7,046 bases of DNA, taken from the IMG/VR virus record IMGVR_UViG_2563366883_000009; one strand, 5' to 3'. Below are positions 1 to 6,255 of this stretch, one piece after another. Within the stretch, counting starts at the first letter, position 1. Every line of letters starts with the position of its first letter. Position numbers and translations under genes: made by a program. Below the pieces are notes generated by a model. That model was not told where the DNA came from. It worked only from the letters and a program-made list of their open reading frames with translations, and did not search any database. The DNA is from a virus. Lineage: Duplodnaviria; Heunggongvirae; Uroviricota; Caudoviricetes.

Positions 1-1230
1 ATGAGCAGAGCACTTAACAAACTGAGCGATACACAGCTGAGGAAAATCAACGGCACACCCGCCCAAAAAACAGCCTTTCTTAATGACGGTGGAAACCTGA
101 GCGTCAGGCATTCAACCAGCGGCCTTTTAACCTGGTATTTCACCTACAGGGCCGGAACGGGAAGGGGAGCACGACCGGAACGGATTAAGCTGGGAAATTA
201 TCCTGATCTGAGTCTGAAAGCTGCCAGGGAAAAAGCGGCACAGTGTCGCGCTTGGCTTGCTGAGGGGAAAAATCCACGTCATGAGATGAATTACACCGTA
301 CAGAAAGCGTTAAAGCCCGTAACGGTTGGCGATGCGCTTACCTACTGGCTTGAGTCTTACGTAAAGGAAAACCGCGTGGATTATGCCGCCCTGAAAAAGC
401 GCCTTAATAATCACGTAATACAGCACATTGGTGCTATGCCGCTGGATAAATGCGAGCTACGGCACTGGCTGGCCTGTTTTGACCAGGTGGCAAAGCGAAC
501 GCCTGTTACTGCCGGATTCTTGCTACAGACGTGCAAACAGGCGCTTAAGTTCTGCCGGAGGCGGCGCTATGCAATCAGCAACGTTCTTGATGATATGAGT
601 GTGGCGGACGTTGGGAAAAAACCGGATATAAGCGAGCGTGTCTTAAGCACCAAAGAACTTGGCGAATTATTGCAGGCACTGGACAAAAAAATATTTTCCC
701 CTTACTACGTCGCACTAATCCGCCTCCTGATTGTTTTTGGATGCCGGACGGTAGAACTGAGGTTATCGGAGATCAGCGAGTGGGATTTTACCGAAATGCT
801 CTGGACCGTGCCGAAAGAACACAGCAAAACGAAGGTGGCAATATTCCGGCCCATACCGGAAGCAATACTGCCGTTCGTCACGCAGCTGGTGGAGCAGAAC
901 AGGCACACGGGCTTATTGCTGGGGGAAGTGAAACAGGAAACAAGCGTGTCGCAGTACGGCAGATTAGCGCACAGGAGGCTAAAACACCCTCACTGGTCAC
1001 TGCATGACATCCGGCGCACCTTTACAACGATGCTGAACGATTTAGGCGTGGATCCTCACGTCGTGGAGCAGCTTACAGGTCATCAGATGCCAGGGATGCA
1101 ACGAGTCTATAACCATTCCCGTTATCTGGATGCGAAACGTGACGCGCTGGATATGTGGACGGAGCGGTTAGGGATACTGGCGGGAACACATGAAAACGTA
1201 ACCACATTGCCAATAGCCAGAGAAATATAA
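1..1230 (+). CDS. int: Tyrosine-type site-specific recombinase, P4/CP4-57-like integrase (409 aa)
   Basis: Complete ORF starting at window position 1. N-terminus (KLSDTQLRK...GGNLSVRHSTSGLLTWYFTYR) resembles the arm-binding domain of P4-type integrases. C-terminal catalytic signature is present: GCRTVELRLSEI (Arg I), HWSLHDIRRTF (His-x-x-Arg), LTGHQMPGMQRVYNHSRY (catalytic Tyr region). Upstream RBS cannot be seen because the gene begins at base 1. Confidence 0.95.
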   Translation: MSRALNKLSDTQLRKINGTPAQKTAFLNDGGNLSVRHSTSGLLTWYFTYRAGTGRGARPERIKLGNYPDLSLKAAREKAAQCRAWLAEGKNPRHEMNYTVQKALKPVTVGDALTYWLESYVKENRVDYAALKKRLNNHVIQHIGAMPLDKCELRHWLACFDQVAKRTPVTAGFLLQTCKQALKFCRRRRYAISNVLDDMSVADVGKKPDISERVLSTKELGELLQALDKKIFSPYYVALIRLLIVFGCRTVELRLSEISEWDFTEMLWTVPKEHSKTKVAIFRPIPEAILPFVTQLVEQNRHTGLLLGEVKQETSVSQYGRLAHRRLKHPHWSLHDIRRTFTTMLNDLGVDPHVVEQLTGHQMPGMQRVYNHSRYLDAKRDALDMWTERLGILAGTHENVTTLPIAREI

Positions 1231-1257
1231 TTTTTTTTGCGATTTTTCAGGATGCGG

Positions 1258-1313
1258 ACAACGTGAAACAACGAGACACAACGACGAACAACAAGGAACA
1301 AAATGGAACAACG
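1258..1313. repeat. Six helically phased 10-bp direct repeats of ACAAC(G) type (ACAACG at 1258, 1268, 1278, 1308; ACAACA at 1288; ACAAAA at 1298)
   Basis: Read directly from sequence: ggACAACGtgaaACAACGagacACAACGacgaACAACAaggaACAAAAtggaACAACGgg, exact 10-bp period, ACA-rich, immediately 3' of the int stop codon. Confidence 0.6.
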
Positions 1314-1406
1314 GGTTAAAAATCAGCCATCGTAATAACCATTTGATTTTTATAGGTGTACTGTTTTTTTATACACTGGCGAATCACTCTTAAAAATATG
1401 TAAAAA

Positions 1407-1444
1407 AGGCGTAAAAGTAAAATTTTATGCCTTTGCATCATAAT
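1407..1444 (+). promoter_or_regulatory. Imperfect palindrome AGGCGTAAAA-n6-TTTTATGCCT (9 of 10 matched) followed by TTGCAT and a CATAAT -10-like hexamer; candidate operator/promoter upstream of alpA
   Basis: Inverted repeat arms at 1407-1416 and 1423-1432; CATAAT at 1439-1444. No convincing -35 at canonical spacing was found, so the promoter assignment is tentative. Confidence 0.25.
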
Positions 1445-1512
1445 GAATTAAAAGAGTTTTTATTCTCATTCCCCCTGCTTCTGTAAAACGACCGCCGCCA
1501 GTGTTTGCCATT

Positions 1513-1565
1513 CCACAAACACCCTGACACAATCCGACACAACCCAACCCAATAATCCACCCAAT
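1513..1565. repeat. CA-rich, almost G/T-free tract with tandem 10-bp units (GACACAATCC, GACACAACCC, AACCCAATAA, TCCACCCAAT)
   Basis: Strong strand compositional asymmetry read directly from sequence, about 30 bp upstream of the alpA start; candidate 5' leader or protein-binding array. Confidence 0.5.
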
Positions 1566-1595
1566 GACTCTTTAAGAAACAACAAAGGGGGAATT

Positions 1596-1784
1596 GTGTT
1601 AAGCACAGATCGCTTTATACGTGAAAAAGAATGTCAGCAACTTACAGGCCTGAGCCGCTCATGTCGGTACCGCCTGGAAAAAGCCGGACAATTCCCATCA
1701 CGGCGTAAGCTGGGCGGTCGTTCCGTTGGCTGGTCTTTATCCGAAGTTCTGGCATGGAAGGACAGCTGCGAGGCAGTTCACTAA
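1596..1784 (+). CDS. alpA: AlpA-family phage regulatory protein (small HTH transcriptional regulator/excisionase-like, 62 aa)
   Basis: GTG start at 1596 preceded by GGGGG (1587-1591). Protein carries the AlpA-family signature LTGLSRS..YRL.KAG.FP...KLGGRSVGW...EV.AW. Position directly after int is typical for this family. Confidence 0.88.
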   Translation: MLSTDRFIREKECQQLTGLSRSCRYRLEKAGQFPSRRKLGGRSVGWSLSEVLAWKDSCEAVH

Positions 1785-1790
1785 TCAGGC

Positions 1791-1809
1791 TGGCGGCACA
1801 CAGCCGCCA
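1791..1809 (+). other. Stem-loop (TGGCGGC-acaca-GCCGCCA) just after the alpA stop, without a U-tract
   Basis: Perfect 7-bp GC-rich inverted repeat with 5-nt loop; the following sequence is not T-rich, so it is not a canonical intrinsic terminator. Possible RNA structure or partial attenuator. Confidence 0.3.
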
Positions 1810-1836
1810 CCCATCCACTAATACAGAGATCTAACC

Positions 1837-3114
1837 ATGAATACTGGATATTCTCCCGAACAAGGGCGGGGCTTCGTTCGTCCTGAAAAACAGAATCTGC
1901 AAAATTTTGCCGAAATTATTCCGGTTATTTCCGGCCTTACTGGCGGGAGTGAAACCAATATTGTTAACGCCAGAGCGTTGCAGATGTTTGATGATAAAAA
2001 GGGAGTAAATTTAACTTACACCCCTGACGGCAATCAGAATATGAGCATTATCTCTGAGTCAGGTTTCTACAAACTAATAAAAACAAAAAGCGCCCCGTTG
2101 CCGGAGCGCCTTTGTGAACAATTAACCTACTGCGCAAAAAATGAATCTGAGCAGTGGGATTATATCAACCATGTGGAGAAGCGCCACAATTGCCGAATAA
2201 CGGGCAAAACAAAGGCCACCCGCTACGGTGGCCCCTCGACACAAGCTACACGTTATCCCCAACGCATGAGCATTGCCAACAATGCCACATTTGCGGCTGG
2301 TGGGCAATGCAATCAGTCTGGTTCAGTTCGTTGCCATACCTGCAATGAGCGCTTTTCCCTGTACTCTTTAAGGAATTGCTCAAGGGCAAAAGCACATGGC
2401 GCGAATCTTTCTGATTCATGCTCTATCTTTCTGCGCCGTCTTTTCCGTGCCGGTGATAATGTTTTGGTCAATTCTTTATCGGTCATTGTGTTGTCCTGCA
2501 TAGCAATGCGCCGTAGTTACTCACACCACGGCGCTGGTGATGGTTACTCCTGCTCTTTGGCCTTGCGACGCTGGCGGCGTTTGATCTCACCTTTAACGGC
2601 AGTAACTATAAATTGCGCCTTGCTTTCACCTTCATCTAAATTTTTTTCTAAGTCTGCAACAACATCATGCGGGAATCTGGCATTTAACTGTTGCGACTTA
2701 TTATTTGTTGAACCTGTTGCCATTACTGAATCCTCTCTAAGTTGGTGCGATTCAGTATACACAAAAAAAATTTCAGAGAAAGACTTGAAGTGCGATTCAC
2801 TTACTGATAGGTTAAAAACGAATGGTGCGATGCACCAAACAACAACGCCCCGCAGTGGTGGCACACATGCAGGGCGTCTAACCACCAACGATAGCGAAAG
2901 TATCGAGGTAGCTATGAGAAATCATACCATACACCCGCAAGGGCGGGACTCGCACAACCTGAATAAATACATCTGGCGTTTTATCGCCCTGAGCACGGCA
3001 CAACCGCGCGTGATTACCATTGAGGCCACCAGCGAACAGGAAGCACGCCAGCAATCTCCGGCTGGCTGCGTGATGGTATTTGCTGCCCGTATTCGTCAGG
3101 GGGTAGGCTTATGA
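1837..3114 (+). CDS. Longest open frame (425 aa); probably not one genuine gene. The 5' ~380 nt looks coding-like (weak Bro-N/antirepressor-like stretch NMSIISESGFYKLIKTKSAPL), the middle is antisense to a better-supported minus-strand gene, and the 3' 200 nt is probably the separate small gene 2914-3114
   Basis: No in-frame stop from 1837 to 3114 and no Shine-Dalgarno before the 1837 ATG. First-codon-position composition is purine-rich (coding-like) in 1837-2220 but T-rich (about 44 percent T by hand count) in 2521-2760. The translated middle section is Cys/Ser-rich. Confidence 0.3.
   Translation: MNTGYSPEQGRGFVRPEKQNLQNFAEIIPVISGLTGGSETNIVNARALQMFDDKKGVNLTYTPDGNQNMSIISESGFYKLIKTKSAPLPERLCEQLTYCAKNESEQWDYINHVEKRHNCRITGKTKATRYGGPSTQATRYPQRMSIANNATFAAGGQCNQSGSVRCHTCNERFSLYSLRNCSRAKAHGANLSDSCSIFLRRLFRAGDNVLVNSLSVIVLSCIAMRRSYSHHGAGDGYSCSLALRRWRRLISPLTAVTINCALLSPSSKFFSKSATTSCGNLAFNCCDLLFVEPVAITESSLSWCDSVYTKKISEKDLKCDSLTDRLKTNGAMHQTTTPRSGGTHAGRLTTNDSESIEVAMRNHTIHPQGRDSHNLNKYIWRFIALSTAQPRVITIEATSEQEARQQSPAGCVMVFAARIRQGVGL
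2201..2233 (-). terminator. Candidate rho-independent terminator for the minus-strand module
   Basis: Perfect hairpin GGCCACC-cgctac-GGTGGCC (2214-2233), followed on the minus strand by TTTGTTTTG (complement of plus 2205-2213); lies about 80 nt past the stop of the minus-strand ORF ending at 2313. Confidence 0.45.
2313..2486 (-). CDS. Hypothetical small basic protein (57 aa, MTDKELTKTLSPARKRRRRK...), possible second gene of the minus-strand operon
   Basis: ATG at 2486 preceded by AGGA with 5-nt spacing; the ORF track starts 5 codons earlier at 2501 without an SD. Codon statistics are equivocal and there are several rare Arg codons. Confidence 0.3.
   Translation of the reverse strand: MTDKELTKTLSPARKRRRRKIEHESERFAPCAFALEQFLKEYREKRSLQVWQRTEPD
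2544..2723 (-). CDS. Arc/Mnt-like ribbon-helix-helix DNA-binding protein (59 aa); putative repressor
   Basis: Internal ATG at 2723 of the 2544-2888 minus ORF, preceded by GAGAGGA about 8 nt upstream. Protein LNARFPHDVVADLEKNLDEGESKAQFIVTAVKGEI aligns by eye with the P22 Arc pattern FNLRWPREVLDLVRKVAEENGRSVNSEIYQRV (beta-strand, helix A, G-x-S turn, helix B). First-codon-position composition is G>A>C>T, as in real genes, by hand count. Confidence 0.7.
   Translation of the reverse strand: MATGSTNNKSQQLNARFPHDVVADLEKNLDEGESKAQFIVTAVKGEIKRRQRRKAKEQE
2724..2913. promoter_or_regulatory. Divergent AT-rich control region with three direct repeats GTGCGAT(T/G)CA (2745-2754, 2790-2799, 2825-2834) and a TATACT -10-like element for the minus-strand gene (plus coordinates 2754-2759)
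   Basis: Repeats read directly; copy 1 overlaps the candidate -10/start region of the RHH gene. An inverted pair TGAATC (2727-2732) / GATTCA (2749-2754) flanks the RHH RBS. The -35 assignments are weak. Confidence 0.5.
2914..3114 (+). CDS. Hypothetical small protein (66 aa); likely first gene of the plus-strand operon (alternative model to the 425-aa ORF)
   Basis: ATG at 2914 preceded by GAGGT (2905-2909); coding-like first-position composition (T about 12 percent) and high GC3; stop overlaps the next start in ATGA at 3111-3114. Confidence 0.5.
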   Translation: MRNHTIHPQGRDSHNLNKYIWRFIALSTAQPRVITIEATSEQEARQQSPAGCVMVFAARIRQGVGL

Positions 3115-4667: not shown

Positions 4668-6064
4668 AAAGCGCACCGAACTTAAAAAAACAGCCTTACG
4701 ACAAGATGACCGAAGTCATTATTTTTGCGGGTAGTGATGCCTGGGCACATGCGAAACAGTGGCAGGAACAGGACGGGCGACTGGCTGGCGATAATGTGCC
4801 TCCCGTTGTGCTGGCTGATGATCAACTGGATGAACTGGCAGACCTGAGAATCATCGACGAGGGGCGCTATTGTGTCCGGCTGTACAAGGCAGGCCACATC
4901 AGGCCATCAAATATTAATGCCATTGCGCACAAGCTGGCGGCGGCGGGTGTAACTGATGCGAATTATTACCCCGAAGGGATGCACAGCCATATGCGGGAGA
5001 ACTGGCGCGAATACCTGGAACGGGTGCGCGGGAAAGAGCCGGCGGAAGAAAAAAACCACCAGCGAAAAACCACGCTACCGATGAGCGTTGGATCTACCGG
5101 ATACGACACGCAACTGGATTACGTGGTTAAGGGGATTATTCCGGCGGTATCGCTATGCAGCATATACGGGGCTAGCGGGTCCTATAAATCATTCCTTGCC
5201 GGATCGTGGGCGTGCCATGTTGCCACTGGTCGCCAGTGGGGAGGCCGCAGGGTTGCACATGGTGCGGTTCTCTATGTGGTTGGTGAAGGCGGTATAGGTG
5301 TTCCGCGTCGTGTAAAAGCCTGGGAGGTTGTGCACGATGAGCAGGTGAAAAATCTGTATCTGGTAAACCGCCCCATCTTTCCGGCTGCCCCGCTTGATGT
5401 TGATGAAATGGTTATCGCTGCCCGTCAGGTGGAGCGGGAAACGGGTAAACCTGTACGCATGATTATTCTGGATACGCTGGCGCGTTGCTTTGGTGGGAAT
5501 GATGAAAATGATTCCCGTGATATGGGGGCGTTTATCCGTGGTTGTGACGAACTGAAACGACGCACAGGGGCCACGGTGCTGGTGGTTCACCATTCCGGCA
5601 AGGATGAGACGAAAGGCGCGCGCGGTTCCAGTGCATTTCGTGCTTCGCTGGATGCTGAATACCGGATACGCAGGGAGGACGCAGGAAGCGAAGCGCTGGT
5701 TATCTCATGCACCAAAATGAAGGACGCGGAGGAACTCAAAGAAGCCGCATATGACTTACGCGTGGTGGAGCTTTTTACCGACGCTGACGGTGAATTAATC
5801 ACGTCGCTGGTGGTGGTGGATGATCCGCGCCCTCCTGTTGAACTGGAGCGCATCGAGGAGGCAGGGAACAAGACGGAAAACCATACCGCGCTATGGGGGT
5901 GCATCCGTTCACGCACACAGAACGGCGACAAGTGCACGATCCCGCTGTTACGTGATGACATGAAAAAGCTGGGGTATGAAATGAAAAACTTCCGGCGCTG
6001 GCTGTACAAGCTGGAAAAAGATGGGGTTATTCGTATCGATGGGGATGATGTAGCGCCGCTATAA
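4664..6064 (+). CDS. Replication protein: RepA/DnaB-like (AAA_25-type) helicase ATPase with an N-terminal toprim-like region (466 aa); satellite/PICI-type primase-helicase module
   Basis: P-loop-like IYGASGSYKSFLAGSWACHVATG, Walker B-like MIILDTLARCFGG and the VLVVHHSGKDETKGARGSSA motif typical of RepA-like helicases. The N-terminal TEVIIFAGSD...VVLADDQLDE stretch is toprim-like by eye only. Translationally coupled to the upstream gene. Confidence 0.9.
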   Translation: MKSAPNLKKQPYDKMTEVIIFAGSDAWAHAKQWQEQDGRLAGDNVPPVVLADDQLDELADLRIIDEGRYCVRLYKAGHIRPSNINAIAHKLAAAGVTDANYYPEGMHSHMRENWREYLERVRGKEPAEEKNHQRKTTLPMSVGSTGYDTQLDYVVKGIIPAVSLCSIYGASGSYKSFLAGSWACHVATGRQWGGRRVAHGAVLYVVGEGGIGVPRRVKAWEVVHDEQVKNLYLVNRPIFPAAPLDVDEMVIAARQVERETGKPVRMIILDTLARCFGGNDENDSRDMGAFIRGCDELKRRTGATVLVVHHSGKDETKGARGSSAFRASLDAEYRIRREDAGSEALVISCTKMKDAEELKEAAYDLRVVELFTDADGELITSLVVVDDPRPPVELERIEEAGNKTENHTALWGCIRSRTQNGDKCTIPLLRDDMKKLGYEMKNFRRWLYKLEKDGVIRIDGDDVAPL

Positions 6065-6255
6065 AAGTGAGGAGCAAAAGCGAGGTGGATAGAAAGAGGG
6101 CCAAAATTAGCCTGCTCTCCCTCACTTTTCTACCTGTATACATCCTCAAAAGTGAGGGGTAAAAAAATACTTATGAAACACACACATAGAAAAACCAAAA
6201 ATCCCAATTGCGACGAAGTGAGACGCTTGAAAAAGTGAGGCGAAAAAGTGAGAGG
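6063..6255. repeat. Iteron-like array of AAAAGTGAGG: perfect copies at 6063-6072, 6148-6157, 6231-6240 and inverted at 6119-6128; degenerate copies at 6077-6086, 6214-6223, 6244-6253; with an A/T-rich spacer at 6160-6205. Candidate replication origin
   Basis: Read directly from sequence, starting at the helicase stop codon. In SaPI-type elements the ori with iterons sits immediately 3' of the rep gene. Confidence 0.55.

What the first reader, a model, noticed from the sequence alone, without database searches (positions are those of the whole stretch)
1231..1595. Long int-alpA intergenic hub with two blocks of 10-bp phased, ACA-rich repeats
The 365-bp spacer contains six exactly phased ACAAC(G) units at 1258-1313 and a second CA-rich, nearly G/T-free tandem block at 1513-1565 just upstream of the alpA start, plus an imperfect palindrome at 1407-1432. 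A 10-bp phase places all sites on one face of the helix, which suggests cooperative protein binding or intrinsic curvature. If transcribed, the CA-rich block would form a leader dense in ACA triplets, which could act as a translational enhancer or as a target for ACA-specific endoribonucleases such as MazF-type toxins. Because alpA is the likely induction switch of such elements, this is the probable sensing region.
Basis: partly seen in the sequence, partly recalled or inferred. Interest (0 to 1): 0.55.

Follow-up and report, generated by a model that had tools for sequence, protein, structure and literature searches.

The report
Phased excisionase-type sites upstream of alpA
The six 10-bp-spaced ACAA repeats between int and alpA are real, conserved protein-binding-type sites of the same kind that flank this satellite's attachment site, most likely the landing pad through which the small excisionase-like regulator AlpA controls its own gene; this is an ordinary design for mobile elements, but it had not been pointed out in this well-studied island.

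Summary
Six ACAA(C) units sit at exactly 10-bp spacing (1258-1313). Block 1513-1565 is the most G/T-poor stretch of the window. A 12-bp-arm palindrome lies at 1405-1434.

Window bases 1-2593 are 99.8% identical to EcCICFT073, the model E. coli phage-inducible chromosomal island (PICI). The published AlpA-activated PalpA-lacZ fragment is window 1198-1653.

The key finding is that the same 10-bp-phased ACAA motif also occurs on both arms of the element's attachment site. There it lies next to a doubled 12-mer, GGTGTAGTTAAT, that tracks integrase phylogeny. Across 11 relatives at six integration sites the ACAA cores are 99% conserved and the other unit positions 76%. The layout copies KplE1 attL, where the excisionase TorI binds GTTCG sites at 10-bp spacing. 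The AlpA model matches solved excisionase structures.

Best reading, about 0.5 confidence: block 1 is a cooperative AlpA (excisionase-type) operator. Main rival: a third cluster of integrase arm sites.

The palindrome behaves as a plus-strand RNA hairpin, probably the int terminator. Block 2 overlaps a conserved promoter-like site (TTGCCA-17-CACAAT) and an unstructured leader. The ACA/MazF RNA idea is not supported. New member of a known kind.

The parts
1..1230 (+). int, a P4-type tyrosine integrase with an N-terminal arm-binding domain. The protein is identical to EcCICFT073 Int (WP_000085269.1).
   Evidence: Pfam Arm-DNA-bind_3, Phage_int_M and Phage_integrase. Annotation. 99.8% DNA identity to CFT073.
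1256..1315 (+). Block 1: six head-to-tail 10-bp units (GGACAACGTG, AAACAACGAG, ACACAACGAC, GAACAACAAG, GAACAAAATG, GAACAACGGG). Proposed cooperative binding array for the winged-helix excisionase-type protein AlpA. Rival reading: integrase arm domain.
   Evidence: A weight matrix trained only on att-arm units scores all six units at 7.0-10.7 bits in exact phase. The ACAA core is 99% conserved against 76% for the other unit positions in 11 relatives. The same motif occurs in both att arms.
1343..1397 (.). Conserved AT-rich block of unknown role (TGATTTT ... ACTGxTTTTTTATACA ... GCGAATCACTCTTAAA). It contains the first copy of the AATSACTCTTWAA box at 1382-1394.
   Evidence: Mean column identity in alignment A1 is 0.76-0.92 for the bins from 1336 to 1395, highest (0.90-0.92) at 1366-1395. 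Repeat family D2.
1402..1437 (+). Conserved hairpin (AAAGGCGTAAAA / TTTTATGCCTTT), probably a plus-strand RNA stem-loop that ends or attenuates transcription coming from int.
   Evidence: Inverted repeat I4. The 12-bp stem dominates the fold. Among relatives one pair changes G-C to G.U to A-U, and further A-U pairs change to G.U. All non-Watson-Crick pairs but one (T.T) are G.U only in the plus sense. No canonical U-tract on the plus strand; not called by the terminator scan.
1505..1533 (+). Promoter-like site: -35 TTGCCA (1505-1510), 17-bp spacer, TG-extended -10 CACAAT (1528-1533). Predicted transcription start near 1539-1541.
   Evidence: It is the only sigma-70-like match in 1100-1900. TTTGCCA is invariant in 11 relatives. 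Relatives with a 10-bp deletion still carry xACAAT 17 bp downstream. The transcription start was not determined.
1513..1565 (+). Block 2: a C/A-rich stretch with weak 10-bp periodicity (CAAY at 1530, 1540, 1550, 1561). It overlaps the -10 hexamer, the predicted start site and the first part of the alpA leader.
   Evidence: Exact 10- and 20-bp length differences among relatives. Only one unit passes the arm-derived matrix. The leader is unstructured.
1563..1595 (+). Invariant leader segment: the second AATGACTCTTTAA box (1563-1575), then GAAACAAC, then the Shine-Dalgarno GGGGG (1587-1591) upstream of the GTG start.
   Evidence: Alignment A1. Repeat families D2 and D3.
1596..1784 (+). alpA, 62 aa. 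A Phage_AlpA-family winged-helix protein, identical to EcCICFT073 AlpA (WP_000953274.1).
   Evidence: Pfam PF05930, E = 3e-18. AlphaFold2 model pLDDT 87. Best structural matches are excisionases: GIsul2 Xis 8C3T (TM 0.83-0.90), RdfS, Pukovnik Xis and TorI.

Best explanation
Block 1 (1256-1315) is an array of six head-to-tail DNA sites, one per helical turn. It is of the type bound cooperatively by small winged-helix recombination directionality factors (RDFs, i.e. excisionases).

The proposed binder is AlpA, the gene product encoded just downstream. AlpA would coat one face of the helix and bend the DNA. Its proposed targets are this array and the identical phased arrays in both arms of the attachment site, next to the doubled GGTGTAGTTAAT motif that I assign to the integrase arm domain.

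In this way one protein would couple two events. Binding at the att arms would direct excision. Binding at the array upstream of alpA would reinforce alpA's own expression, the positive autoregulation already measured for this very fragment.

The rest of the spacer reads as follows. A plus-strand hairpin (1402-1437) insulates alpA from int read-through. A weak promoter follows (TTGCCA-17-CACAAT, 1505-1533). A C/A-rich unstructured leader (block 2) follows that.

Shown: the anatomy, its conservation, the motif shared with the att arms, the AlpA fold, and (from the literature) the AlpA responsiveness of the fragment. Inferred: that AlpA is the protein on the array, and how binding about 190 bp upstream of the -35 raises transcription. 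Possible routes are relief of silencing over the 73% A+T stretch 1314-1470, or looping to the weaker ACACAA units at the promoter.
For: 1. Exact phasing and statistics.
2. Core-versus-flank conservation in 11 relatives from six integration sites: the ACAA core is 0.99 conserved (14 of 16 columns invariant), other unit positions 0.76.
3. The distance from the promoter-proximal end of the array to TTTGCCA is 195-199 bp in 10 of 11 relatives, although the array itself shifts by one unit.
4. The same motif at 10-bp phase lies on the P' arm upstream of int and on the P arm at the right end. This holds in L001, EcCICFT073 and the divergent L023, always beside a doubled 12-mer.
5. The doubled motif changes with integrase clade: GGTGTAGTTAAT, GGTGTAGTCAT, TGTATAAACA, TGTATTGC, TGGTCCAAA. 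The phased GAACA-type arrays persist (PMC10111431). The doubled motif is therefore the better integrase arm site, which leaves the arrays for the RDF.
6. Experimental precedent with the same layout: in KplE1 attL, TorI binds GTTCG, GTTCG, GATCG at exact 10-bp spacing, followed by the IntS arm sites and then intS (PMC2951348; sequence read).
7. [quoted passage not shown] RdfS binds attP and its own promoter (PMC11963761).
8. AlpA folds like excisionases, and its presumed recognition-helix residues R21, R24 and E28 are invariant across distant PICIs.
9. A Klebsiella relative (vB_KppS-Ant; Int 49%, AlpA 47% identical) also carries TGTT arrays in attP and very long 10-bp arrays 250-450 bp upstream of its alpA.
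10. Window 1198-1653 is the fragment that AlpA activates in reporter assays, and AlpA over-expression drives int-dependent excision (PMC6092414). [quoted passage not shown]
Against: 1. No binding data exist. The assignment of AlpA rather than Int rests on analogy and on motif-clade tracking in a handful of lineages.
2. In the L014-type relatives (one alpA, 57% identical) the att arms keep ACAA-type arrays, but the array just after int reads AATATC x3. The arm arrays therefore follow the int module, not the alpA module.
3. AlpA had no effect on a Pint-lacZ fusion that contains the P' arm arrays (PMC6092414).
4. EcCIMP1 autoregulates alpA without any phased array upstream. Helper-embedded PICIs have almost no int-alpA spacer.
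5. The array lies about 190 bp upstream of the predicted -35 and upstream of a hairpin. This is an unusual place for an activator site.
6. TorI sites are reported on one arm only, whereas here the arrays are on both arms.
Confidence: 0.5

Rival explanations
1. Block 1 is a third cluster of integrase arm-type sites. The Int N-terminal arm-binding domain recognises the phased ACAA units in both att arms and also just downstream of its own gene. There, bound Int could block read-through into alpA, or loop out int together with the inverted P' arm array.
For: The motif flanks the att core on both sides, as arm-type sites do. In L014-type elements the arm arrays stay the same along with a conserved Int N-domain (78% identity over the first 110 residues), while AlpA and the post-int array differ. 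AlpA does not affect Pint-lacZ, which carries the P' arrays. Block 1 starts only 28 bp after the int stop and is inverted relative to the P' array.
Against: There are far more units (about 16-19) than a tetramer's four arm domains need. The doubled 12-mer at fixed distance from the core tracks Int phylogeny and resembles the experimentally defined IntS arm sites (TAAA) better. A short 4-5-bp core at one-turn spacing is the signature of RDFs, not of arm sites. The reporter fragment responds to AlpA in cells without Int.
Confidence: 0.2
2. The array is the landing site of a protein not encoded by the island. That could be the helper phage's own excisionase or another phage early protein, which would make block 1 the actual helper sensor. 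Or it could be a host winged-helix response regulator that binds tandem 10-11-bp direct repeats.
For: alpA transcription from window 1198-2269 is switched on by lambda and phi80 induction, independently of SOS, and the inducer is unknown. Excisionase cross-talk between a helper phage and a PICI has been shown. Kapi1 Xis is identical to TorI, which binds GTTCG-type phased sites. The unit consensus (G/C)(G/A)(A/C)ACA at 10 bp x6 recalls OmpR-family half-site arrays (from memory, not tested).
Against: The lambda Xis sites X1 and X2 match the arm-derived matrix only loosely and at 24-bp spacing. EcCIMP1, which is induced by Kapi1, has no phased array or GTTCG site in its alpA spacer. A foreign protein does not explain why the motif sits in both att arms of every relative.
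Confidence: 0.12
3. The true AlpA- or helper-responsive element is elsewhere in the spacer. Candidates are the conserved AATSACTCTTWAA boxes at 1382-1394 and 1563-1575, or the units overlapping the promoter. Block 1 would then be a slippage-generated or curvature-only tract without a specific binder.
For: TCTTTAA-type boxes recur upstream of alpA in distant PICIs that lack ACAA arrays: EcCIMP1 has three copies, KppS-Ant has one at -88, and L014 has them too. Both copies are conserved in alignment A1. Length changes in units of 10 bp show that slippage operates in this spacer.
Against: The box is short and AT-rich, so chance matches are likely. Slippage or curvature does not explain 99% core conservation with drifting flanking positions. 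Nor does it explain the recurrence of the same phased motif at the att arms.
Confidence: 0.1
4. One reading: the ACA-rich tracts act in the transcript, as a translational enhancer or as targets of ACA-specific endoribonucleases.
For: ACA density peaks here: 8 in 56 nt against a mean of 1.1. The C/A-rich leader from 1540 is unpaired in the predicted fold. A clone starting at 1540 expresses functional AlpA.
Against: The conserved unit is ACAA at a DNA helical repeat, and it occurs on the opposite strand in the att arms. Block 1 lies upstream of the hairpin and of the only promoter-like site. Block 2 tolerates 10- and 20-bp deletions. There is no Rfam match and no fold signal (z = -0.06).
Confidence: 0.03

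Closest known systems
TorI (RDF) sites in the attL of prophage KplE1/CPS-53 (Panis et al. 2010, PMC2951348)
   Same: Short 5-bp cores (GTTCG, GTTCG, GATCG) at exact 10-bp spacing in the arm between the att core and the integrase gene. They are followed by doubled integrase arm sites and then the int start codon. The integrase has the same Arm-DNA-bind_3 architecture, and the RDF is a small winged-helix protein.
   Different: TorI sites are reported on one arm only and repress Pint. Here the arrays are on both arms, and a further six-unit copy sits downstream of int, upstream of the RDF gene. AlpA and TorI are only 26% identical.
Apl of coliphage 186 and Cox of P2: dual-purpose RDF and transcription regulators
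   Same: One small protein binds direct repeats one helix turn apart, both at att and at a promoter region, with strong cooperativity and DNA bending (PMC7498355; PMC3936717, listed).
   Different: Apl and Cox repress early promoters and belong to a different sequence family. AlpA is reported to activate its own promoter, and the array here is about 190 bp from the -35.
RdfS of ICEMlSymR7A (PMC11963761)
   Same: A winged-helix RDF that binds attP upstream of intS and also its own promoter, coordinating rdfS/intS expression with excision. It is the second-best structural match to the AlpA model.
   Different: RdfS sites show no consensus motif, and oligomerisation depends on an extra N-terminal helix. 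Here the motif is sharp and AlpA lacks that helix.
Lambda Xis X1-X1.5-X2 micro-filament
   Same: Head-to-tail winged-helix monomers on adjacent sites at about one-turn spacing, next to an integrase arm site (from established knowledge; sequence inspected).
   Different: Three sites on one arm only, no role at the xis promoter, and only loose sequence resemblance.
Doubled attP motif of helper-embedded PICIs (Williams lab 2023, PMC10111431)
   Same: Two co-oriented copies of a tandemly doubled 8-12-mer about 81 bp upstream and 132 bp downstream of the attP centre. Here GGTGTAGTTAAT x2 lies about 88 bp upstream and 145 bp downstream.
   Different: That paper reported the doubled motif as unique to helper-embedded PICIs and did not describe phased ACAA arrays. 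Helper-embedded PICIs lack the long int-alpA spacer.

Membership tests
RDF (winged-helix excisionase) operator array | Three or more sites in direct (head-to-tail) orientation, spaced one DNA helical turn apart | tested here: met
   Six units, all on the plus strand, at exact 10-bp spacing.
RDF (winged-helix excisionase) operator array | The same sites are present in the attachment-site arm(s), next to integrase arm-type sites | tested here: met
   P' arm and P arm arrays beside the doubled GGTGTAGTTAAT in L001, EcCICFT073 and L023. P' arm arrays are present in all 10 relatives.
RDF (winged-helix excisionase) operator array | The element encodes a small winged-helix protein with the excisionase fold | tested here: met
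   AlpA: Pfam PF05930. AlphaFold2 model pLDDT 87. The top PDB hits are excisionases.
RDF (winged-helix excisionase) operator array | The site motif co-varies with the RDF | tested here: inconclusive
   The post-int array changes to AATATC where AlpA is 57% identical, but the arm arrays in the same elements stay ACAA-type.
RDF (winged-helix excisionase) operator array | Physical, cooperative binding of the protein to the array, and DNA bending | not testable with these tools
   Needs gel shift or footprinting. Only indirect evidence exists: AlpA activates a reporter carrying window 1198-1653 (PMC6092414).
Integrase arm-type sites | Sites flank the core on both arms, within a few hundred bp | tested here: not met
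   The arm arrays meet this, but block 1 itself lies about 1.4-1.5 kb from the core, beyond the int gene.
Integrase arm-type sites | The motif tracks the integrase arm-binding domain across clades | tested here: inconclusive
   The doubled 12-mer tracks Int phylogeny. The phased arrays persist across Int clades with 24-78% N-domain identity.
Sigma-70 promoter (PalpA) | -35 and -10 hexamers at 16-18-bp spacing, conserved; mapped transcription start | tested here: inconclusive
   TTGCCA-17-CACAAT matches 9 of 12 positions with an upstream TG. The -35 is invariant, and the spacing is kept despite a 10-bp deletion. The number of such matches in the region is not above the shuffle expectation (1 found, 1.4 expected). 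The start site is not mapped.
Intrinsic terminator (hairpin 1402-1437) | Stable stem-loop followed by a U-tract on the transcribed strand | tested here: inconclusive
   A stable 12-bp stem, with variation compatible with G.U pairs in the plus sense. However, the stem is AT-rich, the plus-strand tail is UUUGCAUCAU, the better U-tract is on the minus strand, and the scan did not call it.
Known RNA families (Rfam) | A covariance-model match | tested here: not met
   No match at E <= 1 anywhere in the window.
ACA-targeted or CA-enhancer mRNA leader | The tract lies in the alpA transcript and is conserved in the RNA sense | tested here: not met
   Block 1 is upstream of the hairpin and the promoter-like site, and the motif is on the opposite strand at the att arms. 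Block 2 tolerates 10- and 20-bp deletions.
Pseudomonas AlpA-type (Q-like) antiterminator system | A roughly 150-aa AlpA with a ring-forming N-terminal segment; binding element between -35 and -10; downstream terminator | tested here: not met
   The PICI AlpA is a 62-aa winged-helix protein. The Pseudomonas protein has eight helices and a different fold (PMC9371919; model).

The most novel reading that the evidence does not exclude
The phased array is the helper-phage sensor. The helper's own excisionase, made only when the prophage is induced, would bind cooperatively to the ACAA array and perhaps to the att-arm arrays. This would kick-start alpA transcription, after which AlpA takes over on the same sites. 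That would identify the long-sought inducer of Gram-negative PICIs as cross-talk between excisionases. It would also explain why induction depends on the helper rather than on SOS, and why unrelated helpers can work.
Probability: 0.06. Interest if true: 0.8.

Novelty: new member of a known kind. Interest (0 to 1): 0.4.

Why it matters
EcCICFT073 is the reference Gram-negative phage-inducible chromosomal island. AlpA is known to be its master switch, to activate its own promoter and to be turned on by helper phages. No cis element in the int-alpA spacer has been described in the papers I could search.

This analysis pins a concrete 60-bp candidate operator. It shows that the same motif sits in both attachment-site arms next to a probable integrase arm site. 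It also maps a hairpin, a promoter-like site and two conserved boxes.

Together these turn 'how is alpA switched on, and is AlpA also the excisionase?' into a short list of deletion and gel-shift experiments. The design itself, an excisionase binding one-turn-spaced direct repeats at att and at a promoter, is well established in other elements.

Tried and rejected
- Rfam scan of the whole window: nothing at E <= 1.
- Anti-Shine-Dalgarno pairing of ATTCCCCCT (1468-1476) with AGGGGGAAT (1586-1594): the upstream arm is not conserved in relatives, differs even in CFT073, and lies upstream of the predicted start site. Rejected.
- Pseudomonas AlpA-style antitermination across the hairpin: that AlpA is an unrelated, larger protein. 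Rejected.
- Consensus folding of the hairpin failed because of a 1-nt register shift in the alignment. Pairs were counted by hand instead.
- A search for a promoter immediately downstream of the array (1315-1400), on either strand: no acceptable -10 hexamer found by eye or by the scan.
- The genome-contig scan with Int returned one near-identical Shigella locus only. The AlpA word-based protein search returned 19 close relatives only.
- CP4-57 (intA/alpA of K-12): no phased arrays, different att architecture, not informative.
- Helper-embedded PICIs: no long spacer and no clear arm arrays, not informative.
- The AATATC-array scan of viral contigs recovered only L014-type elements truncated at int, so their arms could not be read.
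- No second alpA paralogue was found that could explain the two motifs in L014-type elements.
- Lambda Xis sites against the arm-derived matrix: only a loose match.
- An unbiased shared 8-mer search among distant alpA upstream regions was dominated by AT-rich noise.
Full report
**What the window is.**
The window carries int (1-1230), a 365-bp spacer, alpA (GTG at 1596, ending 1784), and then small genes, a DUF4222 gene and a RepA-type helicase. An almost identical copy lies between roxA and phoQ in E. coli 2017C-4173W12 as an island of about 11.2 kb. Comparison with the empty K-12 site places the att core at about GGACATATTT.

Bases 1-2593 are 99.8% identical to EcCICFT073, with two differences in the first 1900 bases. 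The Int and AlpA proteins carry the same accession numbers as in CFT073. The finding therefore concerns the int-alpA spacer of the reference Gram-negative phage-inducible chromosomal island (PICI). Related spacers occur in 878 of 5426 complete E. coli genomes.

- ACAA starts at 1258, 1268, 1278, 1288, 1298 and 1308. TRF reports period 10, and lag-10 autocorrelation is 0.71 against 0.2-0.48 at the other lags.
- Paired and tripled patterns are far above shuffle expectation: 8 against 0.94, and 10 against 0.04. Arrays of four or more units are expected 0.005 times per 18 kb.
- Block 1513-1565 has 2 G and 5 T in 53 nt, the extreme of the window. Its periodicity is weaker.
- The palindrome has 12-nt arms at 1405-1416 and 1423-1434.

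**The decisive comparative result.**
The same 10-bp-phased ACAA motif occurs at two further places in the island, both outside the window:
- on the minus strand 55-140 bp upstream of the int start codon (the P' arm);
- on the minus strand near the right end (the P arm).

In both places it lies next to a tandemly doubled GGTGTAGTTAAT. The array and the doubled motif together form a 75-nt module repeated on the two arms.

All ten relatives, taken from six different chromosomal sites, have the upstream four-unit array and a four-to-six-unit array after int (one shows three strict ACAA units). These sequences therefore belong to the element, not to the host flank. A weight matrix trained only on arm units scores the six block-1 units at 7.0-10.7 bits in exact phase.

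In the four units shared by all 11 aligned sequences, the ACAA core is 0.99 conserved (14 of 16 columns invariant). The other positions of each unit are 0.76 conserved. The array shifts by one unit between subgroups, yet its promoter-proximal end stays 195-199 bp from the invariant TTTGCCA in 10 of 11 sequences.

**Who binds: two motif classes must be assigned.**
The doubled 12-mer changes with integrase clade:
- GGTGTAGTTAAT in the window type and in the 77%-identical L014 type;
- GGTGTAGTCAT at 54% N-terminal identity to the window Int;
- TGTATAAACA in Klebsiella vB_KppS-Ant (49%);
- TGTATTGC in helper-embedded PICIs (40-46% overall);
- TGGTCCAAA at 24% N-terminal identity.

It does not follow AlpA identity. 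It sits at a fixed distance from the core, as reported for helper-embedded PICIs (PMC10111431). I therefore read it as the integrase arm-type site.

The phased short-core arrays then match what recombination directionality factors (RDFs) use. In KplE1 attL the RDF TorI binds GTTCG, GTTCG, GATCG at exact 10-bp spacing. These sites are followed by IntS arm sites and then intS, the same order as in the PICI P' arm (PMC2951348; sequence). [quoted passage not shown] RdfS binds attP and its own promoter (PMC11963761).

AlpA has the excisionase fold. Its model has pLDDT 87. The best PDB matches are GIsul2 Xis (TM 0.83-0.90), RdfS, Pukovnik Xis and TorI. Residues R21, R24 and E28 of its presumed recognition helix are invariant across distant PICIs. 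vB_KppS-Ant repeats the design, with TGTT arrays in attP and very long 10-bp arrays 250-450 bp upstream of its alpA homologue.

**Link to experiment.**
The primers in the supplement of Fillol-Salom et al. 2018 place the PalpA-lacZ fusion at window 1198-1653 and the helper-responsive fusion at 1198-2269. AlpA activates the former. Induced lambda and phi80 activate the latter, independently of SOS. AlpA over-expression causes int-dependent excision and replication. The AlpA-responsive element is therefore inside the spacer, and block 1 is its most RDF-like feature. In the papers I could search, none describes cis elements here.

**Reasons for caution.**
- L014-type islands have a single alpA (57% identical) and keep ACAA-type arrays on both arms. 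Yet the array just after int reads AATATC x3, with conserved cores and drifting spacers. Two phased motifs with one AlpA fits 'arm arrays = Int' at least as well.
- AlpA did not change expression of a Pint fusion that contains the P' arrays.
- EcCIMP1 autoregulates alpA without any phased array.
- The array is about 190 bp upstream of the predicted -35 and upstream of a hairpin.

I therefore give the AlpA-operator reading about 0.5, the integrase-arm reading 0.2, an external binder (helper excisionase or host response regulator) 0.12, another element of the spacer 0.1, and the RNA reading 0.03.

**The rest of the spacer.**
- *Hairpin 1402-1437.* It is the only robust fold in the region. Among relatives one pair runs G-C, G.U, A-U, and others change A-U to G.U. 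These are tolerated only in the plus sense, which suggests a plus-strand RNA hairpin that ends or attenuates int transcription. However, the stem is AT-rich, the better U-run is on the minus strand, and the scan does not call it.
- *Promoter-like site.* TTGCCA (1505)-17-CACAAT (1533) with an upstream TG is the only sigma-70-like match. TTTGCCA is invariant. O157-type relatives with a 10-bp deletion still place AACAAT 17 bp downstream.
- *Block 2.* It overlaps this -10 hexamer, the predicted start near 1540 and the early leader. Relatives differ by exact 10- and 20-bp deletions. Only one unit passes the arm matrix. The leader from 1540 has no fold signal (z = -0.06).
- *A+T-rich stretch.* 1314-1470 is 73% A+T, a plausible silencing target, since H-NS represses alpA in Shewanella CP4So (PMC5148205).

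**Verdict.**
The finding is real and functional-looking. It belongs to a well-known class: excisionase-type phased direct repeats shared between att arms and a regulatory region. Novelty: a new member of a known kind. Interest is moderate, because it gives a concrete, testable operator in a model satellite whose induction mechanism is still open.

Noticed in passing
window 6063-6255: AAAAGTGAGG iterons directly after the RepA-helicase stop codon. Three direct copies lie about 84 bp apart, three closer copies lie at 6216-6255, and there is an inverted copy at 6119-6132. This is probably the island's replication origin.
   Followed up: partly
window 2745-2834: GTGCGATKCA repeated three times (45 and 35 bp apart), in the divergent region between the minus-strand YlcI/YnfO-like gene and the Icd-like operon. 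Probably an operator set for a second control point.
   Followed up: no
window 1382-1394 and 1563-1575; also L014 2583-2593, L024 near 5876, L149 (EcCIMP1 spacer): An AATSACTCTTWAA / TCTTTAA-type box occurs twice in the spacer, and both copies are conserved. Similar boxes recur upstream of alpA in distant PICIs that lack ACAA arrays; EcCIMP1 has three copies. This could be a shared regulatory box, or chance in AT-rich DNA.
   Followed up: partly
L001 12806-12880 and 23786-23860 (outside the window; att arms of the same island): A 75-nt module (phased ACAA array plus GGTGTAGTTAAT x2) is repeated in direct orientation on both att arms. The doubled motif lies about 88 bp upstream and 145 bp downstream of the core. 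This extends to non-embedded PICIs the 'doubled motif' that was reported as unique to helper-embedded PICIs.
   Followed up: yes
L014 2618-2644; L153, L163, L179, L227 at 1292-1317: L014-type islands carry AATATC x3 at 10-bp phase just after int, in place of the ACAA array, while their att arms keep ACAA-type arrays. Two phased motifs, one alpA.
   Followed up: partly
L024 (vB_KppS-Ant, LR881103) 5508-5607 and 5657-5715: Two very long 10-bp-phased arrays on opposite strands, 250-450 bp upstream of the AlpA-like gene of a Klebsiella capsid-encoding satellite: about ten units of CATTCAACAG / CACGTAACGA, then six units of TGTTCATC.
   Followed up: partly
window 1396-1407 (minus strand): On the minus strand the hairpin is followed by a six-U run. 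It therefore also looks like a terminator for a leftward transcript antisense to the alpA promoter and leader. No minus-strand promoter was found.
   Followed up: partly
window 1837-3114: The 425-aa ORF is not a gene. RefSeq annotates this stretch in relatives as fragments or pseudogenes plus minus-strand small genes. The N-terminal part has a weak Bro-N hit. The region is mosaic between relatives, with identity breaks near 2575-2595 and 2845-2870.
   Followed up: no
window 1231-1250: A T8 run and a T5 run immediately follow the int stop codon and are conserved in relatives. No preceding stem-loop was found, so the role is unclear.
   Followed up: no
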